Part shown: positions 4,838-63,042 of the stretch, one piece after another
How positions within the stretch are numbered: position 1 is the stretch's first letter
Layout of the letters: every line of letters begins with the position of its first letter
Source of the DNA: Glaucostegus cemiculus
Lineage: Eukaryota
Assembly (NCBI GenBank): GCA_976551045.1
Contig: CDPCPM010000060.1
Span: 25,916,001-25,980,000, forward strand
Direction: 5' to 3'
Length of the DNA: 64,000 nucleotides
Position numbers and translations under genes: made by a program
The notes under the pieces: generated by a model
The model's input: the letters and a program-made list of their open reading frames with translations, nothing else
Databases searched by the model: none
Told to the model about the DNA's origin: nothing

Positions 4838-5180
4838 GAGACACAAGAGATTCTGCAGACGCTGGAATCTGGAGCGACACACACAAAATGCTGGAGGAAC
4901 TCAGCAGGTCAGGTGGCATCTGTGGAGGGAAATAAACAGTCGACGTTTCGGGCCGAGACCCTTCACCAGGACTGGAAAGGAAGAGGGCAGAAGCAGAATA
5001 AAAAGTAGGGGGAGGAGGAGGAGGAGGAGCACAGGCTGGTGGGTGATAGGTGAATCTAGGTGAGAGAGGGAAGGTAGATGGTGGGGGAGGAGAGATGAAA
5101 GTGAATGATGCGAGAAGCTGGGAGGTGATAGGTGGAAGAGGCAAAGGGCTGAAGAAGTAGGAATCCAATTAGAGAGGACA
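4838..5180 (-). mobile_element. Penelope-like element terminal (pLTR) fragment
   Basis: Shares the GAGACACAAGAGA(C/T)TGCAGA..GCTGGAATCTGGAGC terminus with many copies in the window and contains a hammerhead-like motif. Confidence 0.7.
4937..4974 (-). ncRNA. Minimal type I hammerhead ribozyme-like motif (one core substitution)
   Basis: Minus strand: CAGTC-CTGGTGA-A-GGG-TCTCGG-CCC-GAAA-CG-TC-GACTG. Stem I CAGTC/GACTG, core CUG(A>G)UGA, stem II GGG/CCC, GAAA, loopless palindromic stem III, GUC cleavage triplet. Confidence 0.7.
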
Positions 5181-11391: not shown

Positions 11392-11648
11392 GAGGTACAA
11401 GAGACTGCAGATGCTGGAATCTGGAGCAAAAAACAAAGTGCTGGAGGAACTCAGCAGATCAGACAGCATCTGTGGGGGGGGCGGAATTGAGAGTCAACAT
11501 TTCGGGCTGAGACCCTTCACCTGGACCTTCATCTATCAACCCTTCATTCGTCAGATGAAGGGCCTTGACATGAAACGTCGACAATCCATTTCCTCACACA
11601 GATGCTGCCTAATCCACGTGTTCCTCCAGAATTTTGTTTTTTGATCCA
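11392..11648. mobile_element. Fold-back Penelope-derived element with candidate TSD
   Basis: Two inverted pLTR-like arms; flanks CCACATGCATAA (11376) and CCACGTGCATAA (11646). Confidence 0.75.
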
Positions 11649-17132: not shown

Positions 17133-19705
17133 TAAAATTAATGACTGCTGGTTATACAATTGCACCTGTTTGAAATTCCTCCTTGAATAATTGCCTTGAA
17201 GTTCTAAGTGCCAGGTTGGCAGCTTCAGAACCCCTCTAGGCAATGAGAAGGTAGGTCCAATATTTATGGTTAATGACAAAGGAACAGCCACCCTGCTAAC
17301 CTCGAGGAAATCTCCTCATAAAGTCCTAGCAACCTCTGAAGCGAGAGCTCCCTTTTGCAATGTCAGGCATCAGTTCCACAGGTCCCCAAGCAACTTGCGG
17401 CTCTGATGTCAGCAGAACATTAAAATATTCTTCAAGTATACCAGGAAATAAGAAGCTTAACTTTTAAATAACTTCTTATCTACTGCACTGAGTGATAAAG
17501 ATTGGCACATCCATTTGGTGGAAAAATATTAAAAGCAGAATATCTTTTAATTGGTGAGAGATTGAAATGCTTTCAGAAGACATGGATGTCCCTCTACAAT
17601 GTTACTGTGAATGTTCAGCAAGCAGTTAGGAAGATAAGTTTCCTTTATCACAGGAGGTTTTGAGTAGAAGAACGCTGAGCCAAGTCCCGTGGTTGCCTTT
17701 TAATGCTGGACCTACGTTCTTTAATCCTCCATTGGCCCCAGAATTGTACTGACCATTTCCCCCAATGCTCACTGATCTAACTCCCACACCCCAATCACCC
17801 AAGGCCTCCAAGCTCACTGATCCCCCAAGCCCCCCATCTTCCAATCCCACAGAGCCCTCTGTCTCCACTTTAATCCAGTTCATTATCTGATTGACAACCA
17901 AACCCAACCCACCCCATGATCCTGTACCACCCCTAACCCTCCAACCTGACTCATACTACTACCCTGCTCCCCCCACCGTCACCCCCATCCCAGGTGGTGC
18001 TCTTTCCATCACCCAAGGGGCTCCCTCAAATCAGACCTGTCCCTGATGGCACCTTTCCTTTGGAGGAGCATATTTATCGAAGGCCTCAGGCACTGCTGGG
18101 GTTTGCAGCTATGGGCCCACAGAACAGTTGCTGGTGCATCGCTCAGCAGTCATACAGTACAGTGAACCAACAACTGTTCGATGTGGACCCTTCACTGCAA
18201 ACTACAGTGGCACATGGAAGAACAGGGGGCTGTACAATCTGGGTCAGTGTTCATCCCTCAACATAAAACAGATTAACAAGTCACTTATTTCATTTGCCGT
18301 CTTTGGCACTTTGCTGTGCATAACCTGCCTGGCATGTTTGTCCACCCAATGACTACAGCTCAAGAGAAACTCATCAATATAAGATCTTTTTTTTCCCCAT
18401 AATCTCCTCAATAGCTAAGTGAGTAGAACAGCAGGCACCTCAGTCACCTGTTCAGAGGAAGGTGAGGGCATTGCTTAATGTTATTTGCTTGCAGCCTCTC
18501 CTTGTCCTGCCACTGTGGGAACTTCCACATAACCTAAACAAAGCAGCTTAACAGAGCTCGTGTTTGAAGGGTGAGGAGGAAGTGTTACATGATTAATAGA
18601 CAGAAGCTGGGTTCTGCAGGTGCAAGAGCACTCCTACGGGAGTAAGTCCTTCTCATCTTTCTTCGTCCTCACATGGGATTCCTCATGGTGCAATACTTCA
18701 TGATCCTTAGAATGTCAAGTCTTTTAATCCAGGTTTCTTGTACTTAATTTCTCTGTTTCTTGTGCAAACCAGTACAATGAGGCCTGAAGCTTTGCCCGAT
18801 GTCATAAGTGGGAGGTTTAAAGCCTGTGTTGAGAATTCTTCTGGGGAATTGACTGCCCTGGCAGGAGGAGCCATCGACCTCCTGGCTCTGGGTGAGGCCT
18901 CGACAGAAGCCAGATACCAGAAGTGCATCTCCAGCTACAATCAGCTTCATCCCTTTGGCTTCCCTCCCGCCCTCCATCCTACTGTATTCAAGGGACACAC
19001 TGCCCTCTAGACAGGATGGCCAAAGTTTTCTTCAGAGGACAGATTGCCTGTGGAGTCCAACAGACAGGAGTAGCTTTCCTCAGTTACTTGCCACCCATGA
19101 GTCTATCCTTAGGAGCTGGGCTCATTCTCTACACTTATTGGATGCTTGTGGAGAGGTTAAGTTGATGTCCAGGTCAACTTATTTGTCTTATACATTGAAC
19201 TGGGGATAGGATTTCATCTGTGATTGCTTCTGCTAAACACCAACATCCATTGTGCTACACCTCTTGACGCTTGGCTCCGTCGACCACAGTGTAAAGCAGG
19301 GATGGGAGTGGGCGGGAGGGGAGTGCAAGGACGGGGACTCAAGGCAGATCAGAGTGCCAGCGTCCATTTGTGCCATCTATCCCTTGGATTAGTAAATCAC
19401 AGAAGGAGGCCATTCAGCCCCTCAATTCACTACTGGTCTAATCCAGCCTTCCATTTCTACACTGTTGTGGGTTGCAGATCTTCAAGTACTCCGTTTAAAT
19501 GTGATGAGGGTTTTTGCCTTTTCCAGCCCCTCAGGCAGATTTCCAGACCCCAAATGAGTGAAAATGCTCTTCCTCATCTCTCTCTAATCCTCCTACTGAT
19601 TACAGCATGAAATTATAATCTCTGCCCGTCATCCGCTCTGGTTATTTGACAAATCAACTTAAATCTGTGTCCTCTGGTTATCAACCGACCTGCCACTGTC
19701 AAAAG

Positions 19706-19918
19706 GAGACACAAGAGACTGCAGGTGCTGGAACCTGGAGCAACAAGTGATCTGCTGGAGGAACTCTGCGGGTCGAACAGCACGTGTGGGGTTGGGGGGG
19801 GGGGGATTGTTGAGAAATTGGCAGGACCCGATGCAGGGTTTTGACCTGAAATTTTGACAGTTCCTTCCCCCCACAGAGTTCCACAGAGTTCCTCCGGGAG
19901 CCAGATTGTTTGTTGCTG
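19706..19918. mobile_element. Fold-back Penelope-derived element
   Basis: GAGACACAAGAGACTGCAG terminus plus an inverted partial arm ending gagttcctcc..cagattgtttgttgct. Confidence 0.75.
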
Positions 19919-21822
19919 CTGTCAAGACCCGTGATGATTTTAAACCCCTCAATTAAATCTCCCCTTAACTTTCTCTTGAGGACAATCTCAATTTCTTGTT
20001 GGCCTTTTGGTAATGAATAATGCAGGCTTTTAATTAGGCCATTGGAAGATGATCTTGGCTCAGAAGGAAATGCACTACCCTTCTACCAGCCTTTCTGCTG
20101 GCTGAACTCAATGAGAGAAGTCAGTCAAATCTTGCATGAAAGCAACATAAAAGATTCTCTTTCCCCTCTTTGTTTAATCAATTTCAGCACACGTTCAAGC
20201 CTCTTTCTCTTGTCTAAATAAAGGAAATGGCAGCTTGACATGGCTCCCAATGGGTTAAGCTGTATTCATCTATAGAATGAGTTACTGGCGGCTGTTATTC
20301 CTACTAGGGCCAAAAGAGGGTCACGTTCACTATCCATCTACTGTCTGTGGTTGCTCTACTCTCCGAGGCTATTGGTTAAAAGTTGTAAAGAGAATGTAAG
20401 TTTTGACAGATATCTGGTTGGTTGCCTGTTTTTACAGTTGGACTCTGAACTTGCAAAGGAAACAGCAAAGGGCCTGTCTAGAAATACTTGTGATTCCCTT
20501 TAGAGATTGACTACCTTGGATGCTTGGAAGAAGAGGCCAGAGTTCAAAGGGAGAATCAAGGGGTTAAGAGAATTCCCTTTTCCTATTGAACTCATCCAGG
20601 AGTGAAAATAGTTTGCTCTCTCACCTCAGTTCTGTTTACCAACGTACCTTGTGCTGTGGCACAACAGTGTTCAGTATTTGGGAAATGTTTGGCTCCACTA
20701 TTTACTGGCATTGCATAGCTCCATCCTCCGCAGATTATCTATTTGGTCCATGTTTGCTTGTTGGGATGTTACTGTAACACGTGTCGAGGATCGTTAGTTA
20801 TTATTGGTCCCTAGACAATACTAAGTTCGAGAGGGTGAAGGAGTGACATACAGAAGATGCAATGAAGCGTGCCTGAAGAAAATTATACTGCAGCCAAGAA
20901 ACACAGTTCCATCCTGTACTCTTATAATAGTCCCATTGACTGGACAACAGGATTATCTGCACTTAAGTTTTCTCTCCCTTATTGGTAAGTTATTTTTCAG
21001 GGGTCACCTATGTGTCAGTAGGTTACACACTTGCCTTTGAAGCAGAAGGCTGTGAATACTAGTGCTGGCTCTGTGCAAAATCTAGACTGATACTCAAGTG
21101 CACTCTTGAAAGAATGCTGCACTATCAGGAGGGACATGTTTTGGATGAGACACCAAATTCCAGCTGCATCTTACCTTGTGGGCAAATTAAGACATCCTAT
21201 TGCACGATTCTGAAAAATGTGAACGATTCTGGAAAATGTGAACGTTTTCTGAAAAACGTTATGTCCTGACAAATTATATTTCAACCAGGTTCAAGAAAAT
21301 CCAGATTCCCTGGTCAATACCACAAGGTTGTTTGAGGAAGGTTTCTGTGTCTAAATTGGGTTCAACAGTGTCAACAGTGACTATACTTCAAAATGATCAT
21401 TCATGTTGTCAAATATCTTACAATCAATTCAATATTTTGGGGTTTCTCTACATCTTGTAATCCACAAAATCTGGCCTTTATGCTCCTTTCTCAGGTCTTT
21501 TTGGGTTCCTGTGCCGATTTCCCACACCCTTAGTAACATGTTCCAGATTCTGAAGACACATTATGAACAGAAATACATCATATTATTTACCTGTGATATA
21601 ATGGTGTCCCTAAGTTTAATAAGTCCTAGACTGATTGTGATGGACCCAACCCATTGCCTGGAATCACTACTTGTGGATCCCTCCTGCCTAGCTAGTCTCA
21701 CTGGCCCTCCATACTCTCACATACAGTGGTAAGATCTCACTACCAACTGGCCCCAGGTGGTAGATGTGGAGTTCCCACCCCAAAATCCTGCTAACAGGAT
21801 TTGACAGCTGGCAAAACTGGCA

Positions 21823-24474: not shown

Positions 24475-25100
24475 GAGTCATAGAGTCACCCAGCATGGAA
24501 ACAGACCCGTCAGCCCCATTGGCCCATGCTGCCCAGGATGCCCATCTAAGCTACTCCCATTTGCCCATGGTTGGCTCATTTCCCTCTAAGCCTTTCCTAT
24601 CCATGTACCTGTCCAATTGTCTTTTAAAAGTTGTTACTGTACCTACCTCAACCACTTCCTCTGACAGCACATTCCATATACTGACCACTCTCTGGGTGAA
24701 AAATTTGTCCCTTGGGTTCCTATTAAATCTCTCCCCTCTCACCTTAAACCTATGCCCTTTACTTCTGATTCCCAAACCCTGGGAAAAAGGCAGTGTGCGT
24801 TGACACTGTCTGTGCCCCTCATAATTTTATACACCTCCATAAGATCACCCCTCATGCTCCTACACTCCAATGAAAAACATTCCATCCTGCTCAACCTCTC
24901 TCTATAACTCAGTCCCTCGAGTTCCAGCAACATCCTCGTAAATCTCCTCTGCACTCTTTCCAGCTTCATGGCATCTTTCCTATAGCAGGGTGACCAAAAC
25001 TCAACACAATATTCCAAATGTGGCCTCACCAACTGCTTGTACAACTGCAACATAACGTCCCGACTTCTATACTCAATGTCCTGACTGATGAAGGCATGTC
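24475..25100 (-). mobile_element. CR1-type LINE 3' part
   Basis: MLQLYKQLVRPHLEYCVEFWSPCYRKD...LERVQRRFTRML and GHRFKVRGERF...FFTQRVVSIWN. Confidence 0.93.
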
Positions 25101-26129
25101 TTCTGTGCGATAAATTTCCATTTTCATAATTCTGTAATTAATTGGCTGAAGGGATGAGGTAACGAGGCAAATAGGATGTAACCAGCCAAGCAAAGAAACA
25201 AAAGATGGGTCTGTAGGAGGTGTAAATGACAATAGCAGAAATCCCACTCACCTTATTGGAGGGGACAATGGTTATCTGGTCTCTGGGACTCCTCTTCAAA
25301 AATGTTGACCTAAACAGGCCGCCAAGTCCCAAAGATGTCTCTTTCAACACTTTCTCAATACTACACTGGGTGGGACATTGAGCTAGGTTACATTTCATAA
25401 ACTCTGAAGCAGGACTTGTTTTTGTTGAACTTAGTTCACGGATAAGAGTTCTGTCAACTGAATCAAATGTAATGGATATAGCTAATATTTTCTGTACAGT
25501 GGAAGGTCATTTGAATATTGTCCCCATTCTACCCATGAGAAAAGTTATGGACATTCAAGGTTCCAAAATGTCAATACAATGGAAATATTGTAATGTTTTA
25601 GGATGAGACCAATCCAAGTACTGTGTGTTTATTCTATTATGTGCATCTTTCACAAAAGTCACATAAAAGTTGTTGAATAAAAATATGATGTGATTGGAAA
25701 ACAAATCTCAGGGTGTACTCCTCAAATCCCTTGTATTAAGTCTATGAAGGTACTTTTATAATTGCCAATTGGCACTTTGATGTAGTATTGATGCATTCAC
25801 TGGAAACATTTCTTATATGGTTAAGTCATGTAAGGCGGCCAAGCGGAGGTGGCTCTCTGTTATCACTAGTTTTTTAACACTCCATGACTAAATATTGAAG
25901 AAGTCCTTTTATAGCTATCCAGCATAAGGTACAATCCATCCTAATAAATAATCTGTTTGATCCACAACGGATGGTAAAGTATACCAAAATCTCTGTAGGT
26001 AATTGCAGTAGACATTTTAATGTTATAAATATTTTATTTGGAACGAACATAAGATTGTGTCAGAACAACTAATCCACAACTACTCAGGGAGGCTTGCATC
26101 TCAGCTTGAAACTGCTATCACACCAGAAC

Positions 26130-26465
26130 CCAAAGATTGTGGATCCATGCCCCACTGAATCTTCACTCAATCTGAAGACAGATATTCTTTGGCCTTGATG
26201 TTCGACCAAGGTCCTATCTGTTGAAGATCTCTTAAACAGGAAGTTCCCCTAATGACCTGGCCAACATCCTTAAATTAGTCAGAAACAGAACAGCTTAACC
26301 TGTCATTTGTTTCATTGCTGTTTGTGGGATCCTGCGGTGTGGAAGATAGCTGCCATGTTTGGCTACATTATAACAGTGGACTGCTTGATGGAAATACTGA
26401 TTCATGTGAAGGACTTTAAGTCCTTCTCAGAGATATGATCAGGTGCTGTATAAATACGAGCCTTT
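26130..26465 (+). mobile_element. Ancient Deu-domain SINE
   Basis: cattgctgtttgtgggatcctgc...gctgccatgttt...ggtgctgtataaatacgag. Confidence 0.65.
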
Positions 26466-27404
26466 AGTAAATTGTTTGACAGCCATTAAGTTTATTTTTG
26501 CTACAGTTTATTGGACCTTGGAGTTTATAACTGTGAAAGCATCTTTAGTTTCCTGTAAACATAAGACCTTAATACAGTATTTCAACAATTTTCTATATTA
26601 AGAATAAATTAAACTTTTTTATCACGTAAATGTTGAGCATTGTAAAAGATGAACTCTCAAACATTATGCGTAATACCCACTACTTGTTAACAGGTGACCC
26701 ATAATTATTGAACGGCTTCAGATCCTGAGCCATTTTCCCCTTGGCCTATTGTCCCTGTGAAAGATATATCCAACTGGTCCCATTTCTCTCCCCTTTCTCC
26801 AAAGCTCTGCAATTTTTTCCTTTCAGATATCCATATAGTTCCTTTGGGAAGTCACTGTTGAGCCAGCTTTCATCAGCCTTTTAGGCAATCATTCCAGATC
26901 CCAGCAACTCATTGCATATTAAACTTTCGCCTCTTCTCTGCTGCTTCTGCCAATTCCCTTAAATCTAAGTCCTCTGGTTACAGACCCTGTTGGCAGTAAA
27001 AACGGTTTCACTTAATCTACTCTATCAAAAATTATGAACACTTCCATTAAGTGTCCTCTTAACCATATTTATTCTAAGGGGAACAATCTCGAATCCTCCA
27101 GTAACCTCCATTCCACTGAATCTTTCCAGTAAATCTCCTGAAGGCCTTCACGTCTTTTCAGGACTGAGCTCAGGGCTCCAGGCAAAGGATGACAAGTGAT
27201 TTATGAAGTTGCTGTATCAAATCTTCCCACGTAACCTGTGGGGGATTATTGCGCACATAGTGCTGAAAAAATACCTGGACAAGCACTTAAGGAGCCATAA
27301 CGTACAAGACTTAAGAACCAAGACTGAGAAGTAGTTTATATCTGGCAGGGATGTAATAAGCTGAGTGGCCTCTTCGGGCCCTATAAATTTCTATAATCCT
27401 AAAT

Positions 27405-28078
27405 TCCGTGCCGAGTCCTTCATTACACAGCTGCTCAGGACACACCTAGACAAAAACCCATGCATCTTTTTCCATTCCTTCCTGGTAAAAGTGCATTCCT
27501 GAAGCCGACGGGCAACATTCCCAGTGGAGCCATCGCGCAGGCAGTGTCGCGCGTGTCACCGATACTCTGACGTCCCGCGAGGTCTTGGTGCTCGATGGAA
27601 ATTTCTGGCGGTGGAGTGTTTTGCCAAATGACTTTCAACAGTCCACCCGTGGAACTCAGCGGGTCGAGCAGCATCTATGTGAGGAAAGGAACTGTCGATG
27701 TTTCAGGTCGAAACCCTGCAGGGTCCTGATACCGGGTTTTGATGTGAAACGTCGACATTCCCTTTCCTCCCACAGACGCTGCTCGACCCGCTGAGTTCCT
27801 CCGGCAGATTGGGTGTTGCTCCAAATTCCAGCGTCTGCAGCCTCGTGTCTCGACTTTGACACTCTGCTTGGGGGATCACCCCGTAGGATACACTGCCTCC
27901 TTTGCCTGCAGGACTGATGACATTTTGTGCAGACCATTGCATGATTGGATAGTGAAGCATTCTCTAAGGGACTGGTGGTACGGTTCAATACAACTAAAAG
28001 GACTGTGTCCAGCAATATGGCCAGACTCATCCTTCACAACACCTAGGTACTACCCCAGCATGTAGTAACACAGTGTTT
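27405..28078 (-). mobile_element. Decayed Tx1/L1-clade LINE ORF2 C-terminal fragment, interrupted at 27636-27851
   Basis: Minus-strand frames give IMQWSAQNV, QSVKVIWQN...EISIEHQDLA and LQECTFTRKEWKKMHGFLSR, as in the C-terminal zinc-binding region of Tx1-type ORF2. Confidence 0.7.
27636..27851. mobile_element. Fold-back Penelope-derived element with 6-bp TSD GACTTT
   Basis: Arms GGAACTCAGCGGGTCGAGCAGC and GCTGCTCGACCCGCTGAGTTCC are exact reverse complements; GACTTT at 27630 and 27852. Confidence 0.85.
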
Positions 28079-29299
28079 ATTAAACCAATGGTCTTTAGGT
28101 GTTAATATGGTTTTATTTACTGAGCTGGAATGAGGAGGTGGGAGGGTGGGGGAGGATACTTACTGGTGGCTTCCTACATGAGGGTGGAGCTATGTGTGAT
28201 TCACAAAAGCATTAAGCCTGATTATGCATCTGTACACTTTCCTTTATTTCAGCCTATTTTGTCGCGATCTCCGGCACTAGAGAACCAACCGCAAAGCACG
28301 AGGTGATGTGGTTGCCTTTCTGAATGAAGTAGATTGTCAGCATTTGTTGGAAGGCGCTAGGTAGCCAGGAATGCATTGGAATTCTCTTGCATTGGATCTG
28401 TGAGTAAGATCCTCGCCTCAGTGCAAGGAGGGGTAGATGCTAGCTGGAGTATCAACATCAATCATTTCCTGCACCATCCCACCTCATGTCTCATCAAACT
28501 GCCTCTAAAACCTGGAGAGAATTTTGTAAATTGGTTCGGGATGTCCAGTTGAGGCAGGTGCAGAGACAATGTCTTTTTTTTTAAGAAACAAAAAAGGCAG
28601 AGTTGCAGAATAATGATTGCCAGAGGTAAGTTACAAGGCTGTAATTCATTTGAGATCCTGATGATATCGTAAACTGTGAGTGCATCATTCAAGTGTTTCA
28701 CAAATGCCAGAAGAGCCTTCTGAATTATAACCTGAAGGTGGAATTAACTACAATTGGTAGGTCATTCATTTCATTATTCACTCCTGTCTGTTTGCTTGCT
28801 GCAAAATGTGTTGCAGCTGTCTCTGCGTTCTCTGAGGCACATGTTCCATGCTCACCTCTTTGGACCCGGTGAGAGGCCATTGGCTGGTTTGCAGACGTGA
28901 AATAAGGGTGGTCTTGAATTTGGGTGTTTTAATAGGGAACCCACCTCTGGTTTTATTCACTTGCAAGGAGGCTTTACAGGGGAGGTGGAGGCCTTGTACT
29001 CACTAATACACAACTTACTTCTACCCTCTGTCCTATGTGACACCTTTTACATCTTCTTGATGCCTCAAAGTACTTTGCAATCAGTTACAGTTGACAGTTG
29101 TGCTTCGGGCATCTGGTCTGTGCGCAGCATGATCCCAGATAGGCCAAATAACCCTTGTCAGTGTTGTAATGATTCTATCATATTATGATAATCAAGCGCT
29201 TAAGCTTTTCAGACTGAGGGCCAGGTTTAAGTCAGGATCCTGCTCTTTAATAAGTGTTGCTTGATCTTTTGTGCCTGCCTATAAATAATACAAGGATAC

Positions 29300-29745
29300 T
29301 ACCTGGACCAGAGGCCTGGGTTATAGCAAGAGGTTGACCGCGCTGGATCTTTATTCCTTGGAGCCTAGCGGAATGAGGGGTGACGTTTATAAAATCATGA
29401 GGGGTATGGATGAGTTGGAGGGTCATAGTCTTTTCCTCAGGATTGGGGAGTCCATAGGTAGAGGGCACAGATATGAGATAAGAAGGGAGAGATTTAAAAG
29501 AGACCTAACTTCTTTACACAGAGGATAATGAGTACCTGGAATGAGCTGCCAGAGGTATTATTCGAGGCAGGTACAATTGCAACATTTAAGAGGCATTTGG
29601 ATAGGTACATGGAGGGGAGGGGCTTGGAGGGTTATGGGCTGAATGTGGGCAACTGGGACTAGCAGGGAGGATGCTGTGGTCGGCATGGACCAGTTGGGCC
29701 GAAGGGCCTGTTTCCTTACTGTATTACTCTATGACTATGACTAAT
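29300..29745 (+). mobile_element. CR1-type LINE 3' end
   Basis: LDLYSLEPSGMRGDVYKIMRG...; same subfamily as 2795-3160. Confidence 0.9.
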
Positions 29746-29914
29746 ATGGTGAATATTTAACATCTCCTCTCTGTGCTGTGGTGGTGATGGATAAATTACA
29801 GGGCTGGTGTACATAGACCAGGGCCAGTGTTTAAATCCCACCATGGCAGATGGTAAACTTAAACTTCTGTCTCTCTTTCTCTGTCACCATTGCCTTTTAT
29901 GTCTATGTGTTGTC

Positions 29915-29930
29915 TTCTCTTTTTTCTTTC

Positions 29931-29970
<40 letters not shown>

Positions 29971-30005
29971 CCCATCTCTCTCTTTCTTTCTTTCTTTATC
30001 TCTTT
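29915..30005. repeat. (CT)n microsatellite / polypyrimidine tract
   Basis: Direct inspection. Confidence 0.9.
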
Positions 30006-30334
30006 TACACCCCCCCCATACTTTCAGTCATTGGTTCATCCACCCCCCGCCACCCCAAAAGTCCTCTCTCAGTCCAACGCACCTCACAACAATGAGGGCC
30101 TTGTTCAGATTTCACCCATCGCTCTTGAACTACTTCCAGTTCCTTGCTGGTTTTACTGTTGGCAGTCATTTGTGATTAACTCATACTACAAGAACCAATT
30201 AAATGCCGTAAATGCCTGTGTGCACATTTACAAATACTGTTGCGCTCTCCTGTGTTATGAGTGCATGGGTTAGGAAGACACAAATATGAACAAGTATACA
30301 TAGGGTTAAACTGACCGGCACAAGGTTGTGTATT

Positions 30335-30830
30335 GATAGATGGAACAAGTGGAAAGAGTGCAGAGAAGATTTACAAGGATGCTGCCAGGACTGAGTTACA
30401 GGGACAGGGTGGGCGGGCTAGGACTTTATTCCTTGGAATGCAGCAGATTGAGGGGTGACCCTATAGAGGAGTATAAAGTTATGAGGGGTATAGATAGGGA
30501 GAATGCACATAGTCTTTTTCCCAGGGAAGGAAAGGGGAGTTAAAGAGGGCATAGGTTTAAGGTGAGAGGTTGAAAGATTTAAAAGGGACCTGAGGGGCAA
30601 ATTCTTCACACAGAGGGTGGTGGGTATATGGAATGAACTGCCAGAGGAAGTGGCTGAGGCAGTGACAATTATAGCATTAAAAAGAACATTTGGATAAGTA
30701 CATAGATAGGAGGGGTTTAGAGGGATATGGACCAAATGCAGGCAAATGGGACTAACTTGGTGGGCACCATGGTCAGCATGGACGAGTTGGGCTGAGGGGC
30801 CTGTTTCCATCCTGTATTACTCTATGACTA
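30335..30830 (+). mobile_element. CR1-type LINE 3' end
   Basis: VERVQRRFTRMLPGLSY...LGLYSLE...RLRGD and the CR1 tail. Confidence 0.92.
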
Positions 30831-31754
30831 AAGTATTTCAATAAATAAAGAATTAAAAACCGAGTATCAATAATGGATTGTCTTAAAAACCATCTAGTTA
30901 ACTAATGTTTATTAGGGAAGGAAGTTTGCCATTGTTACCTGTCTGCATTATATATGATCTGGTCCACTATTGTAATTGATTCTTAACTGCCCGACGGATG
31001 ATTTATGGACAATCAATGCTGGTCTGCACCCCATGAATAAATAAATCTGAAAGCCGGTACCTCAATACGTATATCCCTCTTGAGTTGTGCTGAAGCATCC
31101 CTTTGGAACATGGGACTTCAGCCCCAGAGTAAAGCTTGAACATTTAATCTCTATAACCCAGATCTGACGTTTTGCCAACAAAGTTAGGCTGAAACCCTGA
31201 AAGAGAAAAATGCCTAACTAGAGGCTGCAAAAAGACTTGAAAAGTTTAACATTAGTTAATTGGAGAAAACCTTAAAAAGGATTTTTTTTAAATTTACCGC
31301 ACTGACCTCCATCTTCAACATGAGACACTAACCATCGATATTAAACTCAGATAAAGTGTGCTCTGCAGAAGGTGACACAAAAGATACAAGGAGTAAGCTA
31401 CTGCAGCTGGGTCTGCTCCTACTAAAAGCAGAACACTATGTAAGCCTAATGGGGAATAGAACCAAGCTGTTTTATTGTGGTCTACAGATTTATTATGCTG
31501 TTAAAATATCACATATCTGGTACTTGGAGATCTTACTAAACTGGGAGGTGCATATTTTTGACCTTTTTGCAGTTTCTTAAATTAAGCATAAAATGCCTTT
31601 TCAAATCCATGAGCCAGGATTTTAAAAATAATCTGCCTCTGAGTGCTAAATGGAGAATAATTCCGCATTATGTTTTAGCTGCCATTTTAAAGGGAAAACC
31701 GTGCAATAAGTATGTGACTGGATATCAGCTGAACGTTTGACACGTATTTATGAA

Positions 31755-31958
31755 TAGAACATAGAACATAGAAAAACTACAGCATAATTCAGGCCCTTCG
31801 GCCCACAAAGCTGTGCTGAACATGTCCCTACACTAGAAATTACTGGGCATACCCATAGCCCTCTATTTTACTTAGCTCCATGTACCTATCCAACAGTCTC
31901 TTGAAAGACCCTATCGTATCTGCATCCACCACTGTTTCCGGCAGCCCATTTCACGCAC
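31755..31958 (-). mobile_element. Young CR1-type LINE 3' end
   Basis: (ATAGAAC)n tail; reverse complement of the 16900-17080 sequence. Confidence 0.9.
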
Positions 31959-32099
31959 AGTGTGTTTAAAAGTCTAAGCAATACCTAATGAGACTTTATT
32001 TTAGTACCATTTCTTTATTATAACATCAGGACTTATTACATCTCTTCCCATTCTAATTTATTCTTTCCCAGGTTTGTTTCTACTTCTCTAGTTTTTGCT

Positions 32100-32860
32100 T
32101 CCCTTTATCATGAGGGGTCTCCATTGTAAGATCCCACAGATGCCAATGTGATAATGACCAAATAGTCTAACAGTGATAAATATTGTCCACAATAGTGGGA
32201 AGAATTCTCCTATTACTCTTCAAAATAGGGCCATGGATAGTTTATATCCAGTTGGGAAAGTAGCTGGGACCTTGATTTAATGTCTTGGGATTTGGCATCT
32301 CTGACAATGCAGTTGTCCAACAGTACTGCATGTCGATGTGAATACAGTGCTCAAGTCTATGGAGAGATACTCTGTGGGACTTTGATAGTGTCCTGCACTT
32401 TAGAACCTGAAAGATTCTCATTAATATGTAGGTCAACAGCTAACAATTGTCAGTTTATCAGTAACAGGTGTCAATATTTTTTTCTGAGTTGAAAGGTCGT
32501 GGCTACAATCCCTCTCCGGGAACCTTAACAAAATCCAGGCTGACACTATAATTTAGCACTGGGGAAATGCTGCAACGTTGAAAGTGGTGACTCGTGAATA
32601 GGCTGTTAAACAGAGGGATCTCTCCGCTGAACACTGTTAGAAGAAGATGTCCTGGTCAATATTTATACTTAAAAGTCTGGTCTGTTATGTCAATGCTGGG
32701 TGTGGGAGCTTGCTGTGTGCAGCTTGTTTTCATGTTTTGCCATGTTTTGTCATGTTTTGCCATGTTTTCTATGTCAAAACAGTGTCAACATTTCATTTAA
32801 AAAACTATCTTATTGATTATAAAATGATTTGGCGCACCTTATAGTTGCTATAGGAATGCA
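32100..32860. mobile_element. Two ancient Deu-domain SINE remnants in opposite orientations
   Basis: aagatcccacag (minus-strand copy, ~32128) and gtgtgggagcttgctgtgtgc (plus-strand copy, ~32700). Confidence 0.55.
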
Positions 32861-34149
32861 AAATTCAATTTTTCTTTAAGGAAAAATGTTCCTTTTTATT
32901 AGAATGAGGCATGACCAGAACTTAAAGTAACATCTTAATTCTGTTTCGTGAGGCACCTTATTAATGCTTCCCAATTACATTGTTGATATAAATGTATGTG
33001 TTTCCCAGAATGTAGAAACTTATTCACTAGAGGATGAAAACCAGTTTGTTAAAACAGGAGAGTGCAGTGCTGAATGCAGTGCAGCACAGTGTACTGTATG
33101 TGGCAAACTAGGATCAGCTCCTGATAATGGTAGATCTCAAGCACTGATTCCAAACCGAAAGCTAGAGGGCATGAGAGTGCTTTTGTCAAAAGAGTCAATG
33201 TTTAAAAAGAATTCAAGAAAACCGTCATTCAGAGTATTGCAGGAAATAAGCAGTAACAACAGGAAGTTGCTGGTAGCTATCGAAAGTTGTGTATTCGATT
33301 AACATTATGAACAATTACAACAGCAGACATTTCTGATAGCAACTGAATTTTTGGATTGTCCATCTGTCCTGTGACTCACATAACTATTCATTGTTGTATG
33401 TATTCAAATTGATTCATTTGAAAACTAATGTTGCATATTTCAGTTTAACAAGTAGCCCAGAAACCATTGCTTCATTCACTGCAGAAGTACCCTCCCTTTG
33501 TTTTCATCTGTTGGTGGCTATAAGCAAATAAACTTGGAGTTCAGCGTCAAAGAAGTCAAGTGTCAAAGGTTCAACAGCTCTTTCCTCTGAGTCAGAAGGT
33601 TCAAATCTCCATCTGGTCACTTAAGCACATAACTGTGGTGGGGTTCTGAGGGAGTGCTGCACTGTAAGAGCTTCTGTGATCATTGAGATACAGGTCCAGA
33701 TTTTATGGCCTATACTTATTGCCCCAACTCTAACTGTTATTTAAGTTTATCTCAGTTGAATCTGAAGGTCTATGCTCCCAGCCCAAAGCATCCCAGAGTT
33801 CCAGAACGAGGCTCCAAACCATAGGAGAGCAAACTGCAATCACAAAACTTCTAAAGAAGTTTTTGACAGACTACAAAGCCATGCTCCAGCTTTGCCGTTT
33901 GTCAAAGTGGTCAAGAAGCTAAATGTTTCCGCATGCCCCAAATCCCTTTTTAGCTAATTTGAAACATCTCCAACAATCTCCATTGAAATCAGTGGACTCC
34001 CAGATCCTGTTCCAAGACTAACCTGGCATGGGATCTGAGAGCCTCTCCCCAATATTAGTGCTGGGAAATGTCAGCAAGATGCAGTCACGCCATCCTGCTG
34101 CACTAGATCCAGGACAGTATACCATGGTCCTGCCTGCCTTCTCACACAG

Positions 34150-34385
34150 AAGGAGGTCAAAGTATTTCTCTAGCATCTGGGCCAGTTTTTAGTCCTCAAC
34201 CAACACTATTAAAACCAGTTATCGGATCATCTGACGTGCTTGTGGGATCTCACAGCGTACAAATTGCCTGCCGGATTTCCTCCTTTGCAATAGTGACTAT
34301 GCTTTAAAAGTCATTAATTGGCCATCAACTGCTTTGAGATGTCCTGAGGTTGTACCAGGCACTAGATAAATGCAGGTTATTTTTC
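34150..34385 (+). mobile_element. Ancient Deu-domain SINE 3' part
   Basis: tgtgggatctc...aaattgcctgcc...gtgactatgcttt...gatgtcctgaggttgt..aggcactagataaatgcagg. Confidence 0.7.
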
Positions 34386-34441
34386 CTTGGCAGATGGAGT
34401 ACCATCGTCAAGAAATTGTCTACTACTAATAGACTTGGTGG

Positions 34442-34580
34442 GAATCAGAATCCGGCTTATTATCACTGACATACGTCATGAAATTTGTTGTTTTGCGGCA
34501 GCAGTACAGTGCAAGACATAAAGACATAAAAATTGCTATAAGTTACAAAAATAAATAAAAAGTGCAATAGAGGAATAACA
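34442..34580 (-). mobile_element. Rex/Babar-type 3' tail fragment
   Basis: Homologous to 2011-2140 (gaatcagaatc...gcagtacagtgcaa...ttacaaaa). Confidence 0.75.
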
Positions 34581-36889
34581 GTGAATCTAATAAGCATTTT
34601 CTGTGATAAAACTTCAATGCTTTTTTTCCCTTCCATGTTGTTCTTTTTAAATTTTAAGTAAACAGGATTGTGAGAACAATCATCTTTTGTCTAAGATACT
34701 GAGGCTGTGTGGTTCACCTGAACTGAGACACACTGACATTGACCTTCACTGCTGGTAGTCAGAATTGCTATTCGGGGTATGGCTGGGATAGAGAGAGAAT
34801 GATTCATTTTCCTGGACTCACAAAACCCCATTGCAGATGACTTAGCTCCTGGAACTGGAGCTGCTTCAACTGGTGTGAAAATATAGCTTGGTGTTTATTC
34901 ATTATAGTTAAATTGATATGCAAAGTGTGTCAGAACTAATTATGCTTCTCTCTGCATTGATTTATCAATAAATTGCAATCCTGAGGACATGCAACCTAAA
35001 TTTTACATTGATTTATTTCTGCAGACATTTTTTGAATCCCAGAATTTGTGGTCAGTTTTGGATTTGCTGCCGACCTTGAGGAAATCTCTTCACAGAGACA
35101 CTGCAGTCTCGTTAGCAAGCAATTTCCCTTCCTCTGTAGGCTGTAGGAACCAGGCCTCAGTTCAAAGGGACCTCTGATGTCCAGCAGCCTTGATGTCATC
35201 AAGCTGGCTGTGCAGCTAATTACATTGTAAAAAAATTCTCACAAAAGGAAAAAAGGAAGGAAACAGAAAAAAAATTAATTTTCCAGATATTATCCAAAAT
35301 ACTAAATAATGACTGAGATATACACATATGATTTAAGGTCAAAGATGAAATATCACAAGATAAATAGTTGTTAAAATTAAAATCAATTTTATTTTGAAAT
35401 ATTAATGCAAAGGGGTTGCAATACATATCCTTTTGTTTTGAAACAAGTAGTTTGATGAAGCAGTAAATGTGGTTTACTACCCGATAAAAATTCAATTAGA
35501 CCTCATGTAACAGTGCAATATTTTCAGGGTATTTTAGTTTAGAAATAGCTCTGAAAATGTAAGTGATTTCTTGACTCTGGCAGCAAAGGCTGCAAACAGC
35601 ATAGTAACTAGGGGATTAAACTAGGCGTGCATGGGACCTGAAACGGCGGCAATTCCTTTTCCCCTACACGTTTCCTCAGAGTTCCTCCAGCTGATTCTCG
35701 CCCTAAGGTTGCTGTCTGTTTCAGCCAATAATTGTGGCAAATCCCTTTAGGTTCACTGTGAATTTTAGCACAACATCTACTTCAATACCGAGGAATTGTC
35801 TGAAAATTCGAAATGAAGAAAAGATTAAGGGTGATCTAATTGACATGTTGAAGATGATTCAAGGATTTGATAAGGTTGATAAGAGTGAAAGCATTTATTT
35901 TGGTTGCAGAGTTCAGAATTAGGGAACATATCCTTAAAATTAACTCTGGACTATTCAGTGCTGATGTCAGAAAGGAATTCTTCATGCAAAGGGCAGTGGA
36001 AGGGCAGGGCTCGCTTCCCAAAGGCTGTTTTTCATGGTGAGAAGGAATCATAGAGTCATACAGTACTGAAACAGTCCCTTTAGTCCACCACATCTGCATG
36101 CATCATCAAGCACCCGTATGCACTGAACATTCACTAAAATGAAGCGCATTTAGTAGGTGGAGGGTTCAAAATAAGTGGATAATTTTTTGCGGAGCAGTAT
36201 TAAAGTTTGCAAAGCAAATAAATCGAGTTAAGTTACAGACCATAATAATCTAATTGATCGATGGAACCTGAATAGCCTACTTCTGTTCCTTTATTCCTAA
36301 GACATTTTATAAGCCCAGTTCATTGTTTTGCAATTGCATAGTAAGAAATCTCTATCCATCACACAAAGCTGGCAGAACACCAACTACACATTCCAATCTG
36401 TTTGTTAAAAAGGCCTGTGTAACAACATCACGATAAATTGTTAATAAAATAGCTGTACTTTTAAACTACCTTCCTGCAGAAGCAGAGGGACCGTCTTATC
36501 TACTCTCCCTTAGTTTGTAGAGCATGCAAAAAGTTTGAATGTTCATTTCCAGTTAGTGCCCAATTAGGACGCAGTGAGTAGTAGCTGTGACTCTCTCTGA
36601 CATGTAGAGCAGTACAACCTACCATAAATAGTGAACAGTACTGGGATCAGCTGGCAAATACTTGAAATTCAGTTTACTAGACTGAATAGCACAAAGGTAA
36701 AGTGATTTAACTCACTATTTTTAACGCAGAATTTTGACCACATCACTTTCATGTCAAACGAAAACAGAAAAGATTGGAAACACAGAGCAGGTGATTCAGC
36801 ATTTGTTGAAAGAAAAGCATTTTAATGTATTGGGTCTGGGACTGTTTGTATTCATCTTTATGAGATCATAATCATTATGCAGAATCTTG

Positions 36890-37501
36890 CTGTACATGAA
36901 TTGGTTGCCACATTTCCCAGTGTATGAATTCCTGTACGTGAATTAGCTGCCACGTTTCCTAGTGTATGAATTCCTGTACATGAATTAGCTGCCACGTCTC
37001 CTAGTGTATGAATTCCTGTACATGAATTAGCTGCCGCATTTCCCAGTGTATGAATTCCTGTACATGAATTGGTTGCCACATTTCCCAGTGTATGAATTCC
37101 TGTACGTGAATTGGTTGCCACATTCCCCAGTGTATGAATTCCTGTACGTGAATTAGCTGCCACGTTTCCTAGTGTATGAATTCCTGTACATGAATTAGCT
37201 GCCGCATTTCCCAGTGTATGAATTCCTGTACGTGAATTGGTTGCCACATTCCCCAGTGTATGAATTCCTGTACTTGAATTGGTTGCCACATTTCCCAGTG
37301 TATGAATTCCTGTACATGAATTAGCTGCCACATTTCCCAGTGTATGAATTCCTGTACGTGAATTGGTTGCCACATTCCCCAGTGTATGAATTCCTGTACT
37401 TGAATTGGTTGCCACATTTCCCAGTGTATGAATTCCTGTACATGAATTAGCTGCCACATTTCCCAGTGTATGAATTCCTGTACGTGAATTGGTTGCCACA
37501 T
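36890..37501. repeat. Minisatellite, 42-bp unit (GTACATGAATTGGTTGCCACATTTCCCAGTGTATGAATTCCT), ~14.5 copies
   Basis: Head-to-tail units, each with an EcoRI site; minus-strand ORFs show 14-aa periodicity. Confidence 0.97.
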
Positions 37502-43739: not shown

Positions 43740-45290
<1,551 letters not shown>

Positions 45291-46466: not shown

Positions 46467-46652
46467 NNNNNNNNNNNNNNNNNNNNNNNNNNNNNNNNNN
46501 NNNNNNNNNNNNNNNNNNNNNNNNNNNNNNNNNNNNNNNNNNNNNNNNNNNNNNNNNNNNNNNNNNNNNNNNNNNNNNNNNNNNNNNNNNNNNNNNNNNN
46601 NNNNNNNNNNNNNNNNNNNNNNNNNNNNNNNNNNNNNNNNNNNNNNNNNNNN
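46467..46652. other. Assembly gap (186 N)
   Basis: Run of N bases. Confidence 0.99.
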
Positions 46653-60437: not shown

Positions 60438-62844
60438 TAAAACATCAAACCAGTTTTCTTTCTCCTTTCTATCAATCCTAACAGTTGAAAGAATATTACT
60501 CTTAATGTAAAGTTCCAATGCCTTGGTCCATTCTGGGCTGTGAAATAGCTTTTAATATTTTAAAAGTTCATAAAAACTAATTTTGAAAAGTCTGGAATAT
60601 GTTTGTATCTGTGCAATTCACAATAGCTAATAGTCAGATTGATTAAACTGTAAAAGAGTCCAAAGCAAGTTCATTTTACTGATGTTACTAAACAGGCTAA
60701 TATGTTTATCTCCTCCCAGAATGAGAGCACTAATGTCAATGCTGCATGTGATGTCCATCCCTAATTGTCCCAGAGAAGTTGGTGGTGTATGTTTCGTGAC
60801 ATCAAAATGGCTTCAGTAGTAGGATGTTGGGAGAGCTGTAAGACCCAGTTTACATGGCTTATTGGGCATAAGTGTGGAAAGAAATGCTGTTCATCCACAT
60901 TCAGTCTATAGCAGGTGGCAATGCCTGTACGACTTATTTACAATGCTGTAAGGGAGTATTTAAGCCATGTGTTTTTATTTAGGTAATAAAGTTTGTGATT
61001 CTCAAGGACTCCATGCGAAACTGGTAGGCAAAAGCTCAATAAACTTGTCTGAAGTTCTATTTTAGTGGTGGTGTAGGTTAAACAGGTTGAAAGGTTTGTT
61101 GGTGCAGCAAAGAAAGGAATTTCAGGTGAACTTGCTACCCCAGCATGGTCTAATATAGCAAGATATAATTTCACATTATGTATTTCAAAATTAATTACAT
61201 TATTGGACATGTTATACGGCTTCTCTAGATAGCCCTCAGCATCTGATCATGAAACTGTTTATTAACTCAAATTTGGCAGTTAAATGCTGGGGAAAAAATG
61301 AATATCTATTAATTGTGAAGAGAAAATGAGAATATTAATCAGAATTAACTAAAAAGTGGTTTACATATCATTTGAATCTGAGCTGAGGGTAGATATATAT
61401 ACTTAAGATTTTTATTTGGATTATTTGGATCTTTTATTAATTATTAAGACTGCAATGAGTTATCATCACTGAAACTGCCCGATAACTGCCTCAGAGAGAC
61501 TTGCTGCTCTCAGCAGGCCGGGCGGCATCCGTGGAGATTCATTGTGCATCATTTTGGTTTTGTATCTAGATTCCAGATCAGCAGCAACTTGTTTCTCGAG
61601 TATTGCTGCTCTCAGTGTAGTCCTGCTATGCTGAAAGATCAGAGGGAGGACCTGAAATTCCACAGTTCATGACACAATGCATCCCGTCCTCTTTTTGTTG
61701 CAACTTGTAAAATTAGTCAGAAATGTAACAATACTTTAAACTTTTCATTGACCTGGTTGACAAAGAAGCGTGATGCTGTTTGCCACATTAAACAACCTCC
61801 ATCCTGAAGATGTATGGTAGTATAGGATGTAATTTTAACTATAAAGAGAGTTACCCTGGGCAGAACTTACAATATTGGTGAGGTGTGAATCAGGTGGCTA
61901 TGATAAACCCCCTCTCTCCATTGCCCCAACCACCACATCACTCACAGTTCTACATTCCATTAATGTCAATAGGAAGGAGAATGAAGCGGTTTACCATCAG
62001 TTTTACACCCAGGGCCATCCCTAGCCACCACCCCCAGCAGTGAACAGGCCTGACCCTTCCATTTTAACTTCACACCGGTTCCAATTGTGCTAAACCACGC
62101 TCCAAAATCACTGCAGCTGCAGCCTGTTTACTCATTCACATGAAAAAGTTTACACTTGCTCCCTGCCAGAAAAGACCGTAACAATATTGCCTTTTATAAA
62201 TACGTTGTTCTGAAACTGCTCCTAATGCATGTTCTGCAGTGACTTGTTACAGCTCCCGAGCACATTATGTACATCATTTCAGATTACTGGAATACATCAC
62301 AGATACAAATGGGCAAATATTGCACTGTATAAATTTAAATAGATTGCAGCAATATAACTGTAGATCTTGTGTCATGACTTTGGAAACATCCATTGGTTAA
62401 GATTTTCAACTCACTTTTAAACAGTTTAGAAAGTTAATGAAACATTTCTTTTTAGTGCATTATTATTGCCACATGATTGTACAGGGGCAGTGTTATCATG
62501 AAAACTTCACACTGAGGCCACCATTACTAAAATCTTAAATATGCAGCAGGCAGCCTGTTAAGCAATTGAGAAAGACTTTTCATTGAAGTGTAACCTCAAA
62601 CATGCGACAGTTCTAATTTATTTAATTATTGAGGAGCAGTAAGTTTTCAAGATCATCATTAAGCAAAGTTACAACAGCAGATCAAAATATCGTCACATGG
62701 AAGACCAATCTCACTTGCTCTTCACACTCATGATCCTTATGGTGACTGGACCTCGGCTGGCACAGTGTAGAAGCCCCCTCTCTTGGAGTAGCGCGATAGA
62801 AAGCAAGCTGGGGCCTTCTGTCGAACCAATCAGTGATTGTAACA

Positions 62845-63042
62845 ACAATCTCTGGAAGATCTCACCCGGTCGAACAGCATCTGTGGTGGGAAGGAAATGT
62901 TGATGTTTTGGGTCGAAACCCTGTGCCAGGACCTGAAACGTCGACAATGCCTTTCCTCCCACAGACGCTGCCTGACCCTCTGAGTTCTTCCGGTAGATTG
63001 TTTGTTGCTCCAGATTCCAACATCTGCAGTCTCTTGTGTCTC
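62845..63042. mobile_element. Fold-back Penelope-derived element in WT1 intron 2
   Basis: Inverted arms ending ...CATCTGCAGTCTCTTGTGTCTC; flanks TGATTGTAACA (62834) and TGATTCTAACA (63046). Confidence 0.78.

What the first reader, a model, noticed from the sequence alone, without database searches (positions are those of the whole stretch)
27630..27857. Fold-back, hammerhead-bearing mini-element inserted as a unit (clean TSD inside a Tx1 ORF)
Seen: a 216-bp element made of two inverted arms, flanked by GACTTT on both sides (27630, 27852). Removing the element and one GACTTT gives, on the minus strand, CAG AGT GTC AAA GTC ATT TGG CAA (QSVKVIWQ), a continuous Tx1-type ORF2 peptide, so the pre-insertion site can be reconstructed. 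Each arm carries a degenerate CTGATG..GGG-loop-CCC-GAAACGTC hammerhead-like motif, so both strands would encode one. Known: Penelope-like elements carry minimal hammerheads in their pLTRs and often form inverted ends. Inference: this is a non-autonomous, hairpin-forming, PLE-mobilised family (retrozyme- or MITE-like) in elasmobranchs that may be poorly described as an element in its own right.
Basis: partly seen in the sequence, partly recalled or inferred. Interest (0 to 1): 0.7.

Follow-up and report, generated by a model that had tools for sequence, protein, structure and literature searches.

The report
Penelope retrotransposon run-off hairpin stub
This hairpin-shaped insert is two back-to-back scraps of the end piece of a very common Penelope-type jumping gene in a likely shark or ray genome, a known layout with a broken ribozyme motif, and its only extra interest is that such scraps stop at what is likely the jumping gene's transcription start, a clue to how these elements insert.

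Summary
Observation largely right, interpretation mostly wrong. The 216-bp fold-back and its 6-bp target duplication are real; paralogues of the host retroelement show the empty site. But it is not an element that spreads as a unit. Each arm is the hammerhead-bearing terminus (pLTR) of an abundant RT + GIY-YIG Penelope-like element. Most genomic copies are single arms (63 of 74 in 864 kb); fold-back centres vary, left and right arms show no lineage-specific bases, and 76 of 84 carry the 34-nt tail on one arm only: the published inverted-pLTR-plus-tail layout. Neither hammerhead here has an intact core. One sharper point: arms stop at the first bases of the hammerhead (24 of 34 within 11 nt), about 31 nt below a TATA-like box shared by all subfamilies, not at the cleavage site. 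I infer run-off cDNAs primed on both target strands from two start sites near the RNA 5' end and joined by microhomology. The scan found this kind of stub before on other DNA and in this genome.

The parts
27630..27635 (+). Left copy of the 6-bp target-site duplication
   Evidence: single copy in paralogous empty sites
27636..27720 (-). Inverted, tail-less arm: Penelope pLTR piece, reference 742 to 659; ends before the hammerhead CUGA box
27694..27720 (-). Hammerhead remnant of the left arm (stem II, GAAA, AUC, GAC; no CUGA box, no 5' strand of stem I)
27721..27722 (.). Two bases at the head-to-head junction that match neither arm's reference
27723..27819 (+). Forward arm: pLTR from reference 652 (one base inside the inferred transcription start) to the tail-less end (748)
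27723..27756 (+). Minimal type I hammerhead motif, decayed: A for G8 at 27731, C for A9 at 27732 (subfamily trait), stem II broken; family cleavage site would follow 27753
27773..27837 (+). Conserved 9-bp stem (27773-27781 with 27829-27837) whose 3' strand lies in the tail; this copy has a compensatory C-G for U-A
   Evidence: 97% of cells paired, two pairs with two-sided change
27820..27851 (+). One-sided 32-nt tail (34 nt in the reference), between the two recurrent 3' ends of the family
27852..27857 (+). Right copy of the target-site duplication
27413..28071 (-). Host: decayed C-terminal fragment of a non-LTR retrotransposon ORF whose paralogue carries zf-RVT (L1/Tx1 type)
11392..11648 (-). 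Another fold-back of a sister subfamily, different centre (652/639)
19706..19917 (-). Another fold-back, different centre (697/654)
62844..63042 (+). Another fold-back, different centre (670/652)
4838..5146 (-). Single arm with pyrimidine-rich 3' UTR upstream (no inversion)

Best explanation
The element is a pair of very short pieces of the terminal repeat of an abundant Penelope-like retrotransposon, joined head to head inside a 6-bp duplication, and it was likely built at the moment of insertion rather than copied from an earlier hairpin. Shown: the parent has the layout pLTR - ORF (RT, Cys linker, GIY-YIG) - pLTR; the hammerhead and tail sit just upstream of the start codon and again after the 3' UTR; copies end at two fixed points 34 nt apart; arms stop preferentially at the first bases of the hammerhead, about 31 nt below a TATA-like box. 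Inferred: the transcript starts there; the element protein nicks both target strands 6-16 bp apart and primes one cDNA on each, one from the tail site and one from the tail-less site of the 5' pLTR; both run only 60-130 nt before they fall off at or near the RNA 5' end; the two cDNA ends anneal by 2-3-nt microhomology and repair completes the hairpin. The product lacks the TATA-like box and, in this copy, any intact ribozyme core, so it is likely inert.
For: Parent: the finding's own end follows RT-EN coding sequence in 4 of 30 long copies (L341); a 523-aa frame has 274 homologues, the full ones about 900 aa with RVT_1 and GIY-YIG, the closest named ones from rays and sharks. The end runs straight into the ORF start in 14 of 30 loci (two doubtful) and 17 of 20 loci, four of them of the finding's subfamily at 86-88% (L357, L359, L360, L363). 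De novo formation: (variable centre and length, no arm-specific lineage, tail on exactly one arm in 76 of 84). Stop point: 24 of 34 forward arms reaching 646-656 stop there against 12% expected (p 2e-15); upstream DNA of the 15 single arms listed is not UTR (pyrimidine 0.23-0.62 against 0.85), and three have 10-16-bp duplications right at that point. TATA/TTTAT at -38..-23 in 54 of 77 long copies against 0-5 in twelve control windows; TCAGTC at the start in 58 of 77 (its last four letters were part of the search pattern). Same template for both arms: shared non-majority bases 1.84 against 0.70 per 100 sites. Tail-less arm alone reaches the stop point in 26, tailed arm alone in 13 of 76, as expected if the tail-less RT runs ahead on the same RNA. 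Recurrent 670/652 junction (5 of 76) sits on a shared GAC. Duplications: score >= 8 in 9 of 30 against 1.3% of 600 shuffled flank pairs. Literature: inverted 5'-truncated copy and one-sided 30-40-bp tail (PMC8557442; PMC3846280); a purified PLE protein cuts and extends both strands and starts RT at two internal sites that bound the tail (PMC11167929).
Against: No RNA data: the transcription start is inferred from motif position and copy ends only. The same boundary is also a pyrimidine tract followed by CAG (35 of 41), so a splice acceptor is possible. Arms of one element share variants, which gene conversion or self-priming would also give. 21 of 30 fold-backs have no clear duplication (arms are 8-10% diverged outside CpG), one of the nine is a CT repeat, and this copy's 6-bp duplication is shorter than the 10-16 bp seen elsewhere. 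12 of 76 fold-backs have neither arm at the stop point and 7 of 84 have two tails. The 84 pairs include loci picked for likeness to this copy, so the 'both arms at the stop point' class is inflated.
Confidence: 0.8

Rival explanations
1. Same parent and de novo origin, but the inverted arm is made by self-priming: a single cDNA (or an antisense template) folds back at its end and is extended on itself.
For: Proposed for head-to-head PLE junctions in PMC3846280 (passage). Arms of one element share variants; short palindromic words lie at many junctions.
Against: In 26 of 76 fold-backs the tail-less arm reaches the stop point while the tailed arm starts further in; a tail cannot be copied from a tail-less cDNA. 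The inverted arm's outer end coincides with the second 3' end of single arms.
Confidence: 0.1
2. The hairpin is a non-autonomous family (retrozyme- or MITE-like) that is transcribed whole and re-inserted as a unit by the Penelope machinery.
For: Abundant: 7 fold-backs in 800 kb outside the window, 11 in 864 kb with it, so very roughly 25,000-36,000 in the genome; lengths cluster at 190-230 bp; one junction recurs 5 times in 76; non-autonomous PLE derivatives exist (bioRxiv 10.64898/2026.07.22.740005).
Against: Variable centres, no arm-specific diagnostic bases, continuum to 852 bp and to coding copies; length clustering follows from the fixed stop point; no TATA-like box in the unit; in the whole-unit fold both ribozyme motifs are paired with the opposite arm; retrozymes are head-to-tail tandems, this is head-to-head.
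Confidence: 0.05
3. The 5' boundary of the arms is a splice acceptor or the ribozyme cut rather than the transcription start.
For: Pyrimidine tract plus CAG directly before the hammerhead in 35 of 41 long copies; in Drosophila virilis Penelope the intron ends at helix I (PMC4209133). Five arms start at 680-684, around the cleavage site.
Against: Where ORF pieces are joined to this point, none of the 6 junctions that could be mapped has a GT donor at the last aligned base in full-length copies, and positions differ; single arms with exact duplications carry no extra exon; a TATA-like box lies at -31. Cleavage-site starts are not in excess (5 of 50, expected 2.8, p 0.14).
Confidence: 0.04
4. A DNA-transposon MITE with terminal inverted repeats.
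For: Short, palindromic, high copy, flanked by a duplication.
Against: The inverted repeat is not terminal on the right (32-nt tail outside); duplication length varies 6-16 bp; the sequence is the end of an RT-EN element.
Confidence: 0.01

Closest known systems
Insertion units of endonuclease-positive Penelope-like elements: pLTR, adjacent inverted 5'-truncated copy, one-sided 30-40-bp tail, TSD (PMC8557442 Fig. 2 legend and text; Adineta Pen2a_Av in PMC3846280; passages seen)
   Same: Head-to-head inverted copy, tail on one end only, variable 6-16-bp duplication, pLTR-ORF-pLTR parent, pLTR overlapping the region before or at the ORF start.
   Different: Both copies are cut down to about 100-130 nt with no ORF between them, in tens of thousands of copies, and stop at one preferred point.
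Minimal hammerheads (min-HHR) of metazoan PLE pLTRs (PMC4209133, parts 1-2 of 4 read)
   Same: Type I order, extra base after position 9, G10.1-C11.1, palindromic helix III remnant; the paper already reports pairs about 100-700 bp apart on opposite strands and mostly single motifs from truncated PLEs.
   Different: This subfamily has C at position 9 (112 of 277 arms); this copy has further core and stem II damage. Sharks and rays are not mentioned in the parts read.
Anolis Poseidon (PAc) in vitro system (PMC11167929, parts 1-2 of 4 read)
   Same: Two RT start sites bounding the tail, in a stem-loop about 110-150 nt downstream of the hammerhead; both strands cut and extended; uncleaved RNA is the main template.
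   Different: In PAc the ORF starts inside the hammerhead; here the ATG lies about 37 nt after the tail. The paper does not describe ORF-less fold-backs in the parts read.
Non-LTR retrozymes of animals (bioRxiv 10.64898/2026.07.22.740005, parts 1-3 of 5 read)
   Same: Non-coding, pLTR-derived, type I hammerhead, reported for one cartilaginous fish.
   Different: Defined as head-to-tail tandems with at least two complete hammerheads on one strand; this is head-to-head with none complete.
L1 twin priming and retroviral strong-stop DNA (both recalled, no call)
   Same: Two primers on one RNA give an inversion joined by microhomology; a cDNA primed near the RNA 5' end runs off after a fixed short length.
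   Different: In L1 the inverted piece covers a different, upstream part of the RNA; here both arms cover the same part.

Membership tests
Endonuclease-positive Penelope-like element (insertion product) | Parent with one ORF holding RT and C-terminal GIY-YIG | tested here: met
   L269 frame: RVT_1 E 0.0026 and GIY-YIG E 0.051, both below Pfam cut-offs; full homologues carry both; finding's end follows RT-EN sequence
Endonuclease-positive Penelope-like element (insertion product) | pLTR-ORF-pLTR partial tandem | tested here: met
   L348 has both repeats around the ORF; end runs into ORF start in 14 of 30 and 17 of 20 loci
Endonuclease-positive Penelope-like element (insertion product) | Adjacent inverted 5'-truncated copy, head to head | tested here: met
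   30 of 58 loci picked by 3' end; 11 of 74 in sampled blocks; 832-bp arm on coding copy L263
Endonuclease-positive Penelope-like element (insertion product) | Optional 30-40-bp tail on one end | tested here: met
   Two 3' end classes 34 nt apart; exactly one tailed arm in 76 of 84
Endonuclease-positive Penelope-like element (insertion product) | Target-site duplication of variable length | tested here: met
   9 of 30 against 1.3% control, 10-16 bp; 6 bp here, checked against empty paralogues
Neptune clade of PLEs | Cys-rich finger between RT and EN; placement on an RT tree | tested here: inconclusive
   A Cys motif lies between RT and GIY-YIG in the translations, the trait named in PMC8557442; no tree with reference elements was built
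Minimal type I hammerhead (family level) | Stem I, CUGANGA, extra base, stem II, GAAA, C-G remnant, NUH | tested here: met
   Majority bases over 277 arms fit, except C at position 9 in 112; stem II 92% and stem I 80% of cells paired, no two-sided changes in either, so no covariation proof
Minimal type I hammerhead (this copy) | Intact core and stem II in each arm | tested here: not met
   Right arm A for G8, C for A9, stem II broken; left arm lacks CUGA; only 8 of 277 arms keep the tested core letters
Minimal type I hammerhead (this copy) | Self-cleavage | not testable with these tools
   Needs an in vitro assay
Non-LTR retrozyme | Head-to-tail tandem with at least two complete hammerheads on one strand | tested here: not met
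   Head-to-head, none complete; definition
Non-LTR retrozyme | Circular RNA intermediate | not testable with these tools
   No reads available
Unit-propagated non-autonomous family or MITE | Fixed centre and length, arm-specific inherited mutations | tested here: not met
Unit-propagated non-autonomous family or MITE | Terminal inverted repeats and fixed-length duplication | tested here: not met
   Tail outside the inversion; duplications 6-16 bp
Tx1 clade (host element) | L1/Tx1-type ORF2 with C-terminal zf-RVT; placement in Tx1 | tested here: inconclusive
   Paralogue L127 has zf-RVT above cut-off and matches the host at 31-38%; one RT + zf-RVT homologue; the name Tx1 is recalled, no tree built

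The most novel reading that the evidence does not exclude
These stubs are a genomic record, in tens of thousands of copies, of Penelope integration: two cDNAs primed on opposite target strands from two start sites in the 5' pLTR of one RNA, running off at a TATA/initiator-defined 5' end that coincides with hammerhead stem I, with the ribozyme cut playing little or no part. The subfamily that did this carried a changed core base (C at position 9), so the motif may be kept as an RNA 5' signal rather than as a nuclease.
Probability: 0.5. Interest if true: 0.5.

Novelty: new member of a known kind. Interest (0 to 1): 0.27.

Why it matters
As an object it is ordinary debris: repeat libraries should file these hairpins under their Penelope parent, not as a MITE or retrozyme. 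Its value is as data. How PLEs make inverted repeats and tails is stated as open in PMC8557442. The fixed stop point, the one-sided tail and the lead of the tail-less arm give exact predictions for the existing in vitro system and for 5' end mapping in a cartilaginous fish.

Tried and rejected
Rfam scan: three chance hits, no ribozyme. Pfam on the window flanks and on two short PLE frames: nothing useful; PDB sequence search of the L111 frame: 0 hits; a homologue search among longer proteins with that frame: none, answered later with a better frame. The Atlas look-up returned no result. Sequencing runs: no RNA holder listed; this says nothing on expression. One search used the wrong locus and found an unrelated young repeat. 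One search compared the wrong paralogue frame; redone. Splicing from ORF donors to the hammerhead: rejected, no GT at the last aligned base of the 6 mappable junctions of 14 listed. Arms starting at the ribozyme cut (lead from e1-9162017): no excess. A-to-G editing scar (lead from e1-9141068): none in this copy (3 A>G of 18 and 3 of 13 changes), and similar spectra on both arms in 55 fold-backs. Single arms do not fold better than shuffles (z +0.3, -0.4, -1.1, +1.1). Rows dropped before counts: two duplicate loci (L177, L203) and one doubtful inversion (L197); the 58 loci include this copy and the query copy. Block B4 (100 kb) had no copy and is counted. Literature searches without a description of this shark/ray family or of a run-off model: 4 papers, none relevant beyond a review; 0; 2; 2, listings only; 3, listings only; 0; 0. 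The library lacks most subscription papers; Lunse et al. on dimer-cleaving PLE hammerheads was not held (title seen only in a reference list), and Dfam and Repbase could not be searched, so the family may already carry a name. Supplements of the bioRxiv retrozyme paper were not seen and may list this family for its one cartilaginous fish.

Full report
Observation. The window holds GACTTT at 27630 and 27852 around 216 bp. Arms of 78 nt are 82% complementary and the unit folds far better than shuffles (z -11.9). The duplication is genuine: paralogues of the host element run across the empty junction (13 alignments from 19 loci) and show the hexamer once. The host is a decayed 660-bp piece of an L1/Tx1-type ORF (zf-RVT in a paralogue) with a stop four codons before the junction peptide. 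The hairpin is asymmetric, with 32 nt outside it on the right. The hammerhead claim holds only in part: the left arm stops before CUGA, and the right arm has A for G8, C for A9 and a broken stem II.

Copies. The window lies in a 2.85-Gb genome; the element drew 6110 first-look candidates, of which 40 were scored. In eight 100-kb blocks plus the window there were 74 insertions, 63 single arms and 11 fold-backs; scaled up this is very roughly 230,000-245,000 ends and 25,000-36,000 fold-backs over all subfamilies, with wide spread (one block had none). The 3' ends of single arms fall in two groups about 34 nt apart.

Parent. Single arms often continue upstream through a pyrimidine-rich UTR into a GIY-YIG frame. 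The finding's own end follows RT-EN coding sequence in 4 of 30 long copies, for example L341. Walking 5' through the RT reached the ORF start, and there the same hammerhead-plus-tail piece lies directly before the start codon: 14 of 30 loci, two doubtful, and 17 of 20 loci, four of them of the finding's subfamily. L348 shows pLTR-ORF-pLTR. Homologues are about 900 aa with RVT_1 and GIY-YIG; the closest named ones come from rays and sharks, which is the basis for the host inference. A Cys motif between RT and EN suggests the Neptune clade; no tree was built.

Is the hairpin a unit? To avoid choosing copies by their centre I picked 60 loci by the 3' end alone; 58 were unique, 30 had an inverted arm, with 27 distinct junction pairs. 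Over all fetched DNA there were 84 head-to-head pairs: 76 with one tailed arm, 7 with two, 1 with none; 68 distinct junctions in 76; no column separated left from right arms after correction for 91 tests. Lengths run from 146 to 852 bp, and coding copy L263 has an 832-bp tail-less inverted arm. A family copied as a hairpin would keep one centre and arm-specific mutations. It does not. Duplications are enriched (9 of 30 against 1.3%) and vary from 10 to 16 bp. This is the layout described for Penelope-like elements: an adjacent inverted 5'-truncated copy, a one-sided 30-40-bp tail and a short duplication (PMC8557442, passages; PMC3846280, passages). Pairs of minimal hammerheads on opposite strands 100-700 bp apart are already reported (PMC4209133).

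Why so short and so alike? Forward arms stop at one place: 24 of the 34 that reach reference 646-656 end there, against about 12% expected from the rate elsewhere (p 2e-15). That place is the first strand of hammerhead stem I. It is not an alignment artefact, since the DNA upstream is not UTR and three single arms have exact duplications there. In long copies of all subfamilies a TATA-like word lies at -38..-23 (54 of 77, controls 0-5) and the start reads TCAGTC in 58 of 77; that these are the usual TATA spacing and an initiator-like word is recalled, and TATA plus initiator in a pLTR is noted in PMC3846280. In Drosophila virilis the promoter is internal and the start lies in the pLTR (PMC2377424, passages). 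The cleavage site shows no excess of starts (5 of 50, p 0.14). The boundary also looks like a splice acceptor, but ORF pieces joined to it show no GT donor at the 6 junctions that could be mapped.

Mechanism. Shown steps: parent structure, two 3' ends, one preferred 5' stop, one-sided tail, variable centre, duplication. Inferred steps: the RNA begins at stem I; the protein nicks both strands and primes one cDNA at the tail site and one at the tail-less site of the 5' pLTR; both run off after 60-130 nt; their ends anneal by microhomology (the one recurrent junction sits on a shared GAC). The arms of one element share rare bases 2.6 times as often as arms of different elements, which fits one template, and the tail-less arm alone reaches the stop point twice as often as the tailed arm alone (26 to 13), which fits one RT running ahead of the other. 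A purified Anolis PLE protein cuts and extends both strands, starts at two internal sites that bound the tail, and uses uncleaved RNA (PMC11167929). A conserved 9-bp stem with two compensated pairs closes on the tail and is a candidate for the start-site structure. Against: no RNA data, most duplications have decayed, 12 of 76 fold-backs have neither arm at the stop point, and gene conversion or self-priming could explain the shared bases.

Ribozyme. The family majority fits a minimal type I hammerhead, but only 8 of 277 arms keep the tested core letters, mostly through CpG decay, and 112 have C at position 9. Core changes usually cost much activity, with rare natural exceptions (PMC3088659, passages). 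Stems I and II are mostly paired but show no two-sided changes. In the whole-unit fold both motifs pair with the opposite arm. This copy is likely inert.

Verdict. Real, inserted in one event, and a new instance of a known kind. My reading was fixed before I looked at earlier notes; those notes report the same kind of stub in other shark or ray genomes and in this one and are not independent support. I found no paper on this family or on a run-off model in the searches, but the library is partial and Dfam and Repbase were not searchable. Interest 0.27; the mechanistic reading would merit about 0.5 if confirmed.

Noticed in passing
window 44412-44879 (+): First coding exon of a Wilms tumour 1 (WT1) gene, Pfam WT1 E 2.4e-57; the insertion lies about 16.5 kb upstream of it. 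No link shown.
   Followed up: partly
L326, L330, L324, L321, L366, L370 and others among L311-L372: Many copies consist of pLTR, a 200-500-nt ORF start, and a second hammerhead end that begins at the same stop point, joined at differing ORF positions without GT donors. They look like template jumps from the RNA 5' end and are better candidates for short non-autonomous units than the hairpins.
   Followed up: partly
L057:3144-3342 (G000:C29): A 199-bp repeat with 40 scored copies at 93-99% identity, nearly all 98-99%, and 3784 candidates: much younger than the Penelope ends; not identified.
   Followed up: no
reference position 661 and 656 across 277 arms: Subfamily-wide changes in the hammerhead core: C for A9 in 112 arms (the finding's subfamily) and A for U4 in 36 arms.
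   Followed up: partly
window 36858-37505: A tandem repeat of about 39 bp that stays open for 215 codons on the minus strand; probably a minisatellite.
   Followed up: no
L052-L053 (G000:C29, block B3 near 19000-21073, minus): A 682-codon open frame that resembles a retroviral-type pol (motifs recalled); observed only.
   Followed up: no
window 46467-46652: 186 N; nothing can be said about them.
   Followed up: no
G000:C524 and G000:C108 (L292-L294, L299-L307, L309, L310): The same PLE fragment with the same flanks recurs many times along each of these contigs, which points to large segmental or tandem duplications.
   Followed up: no
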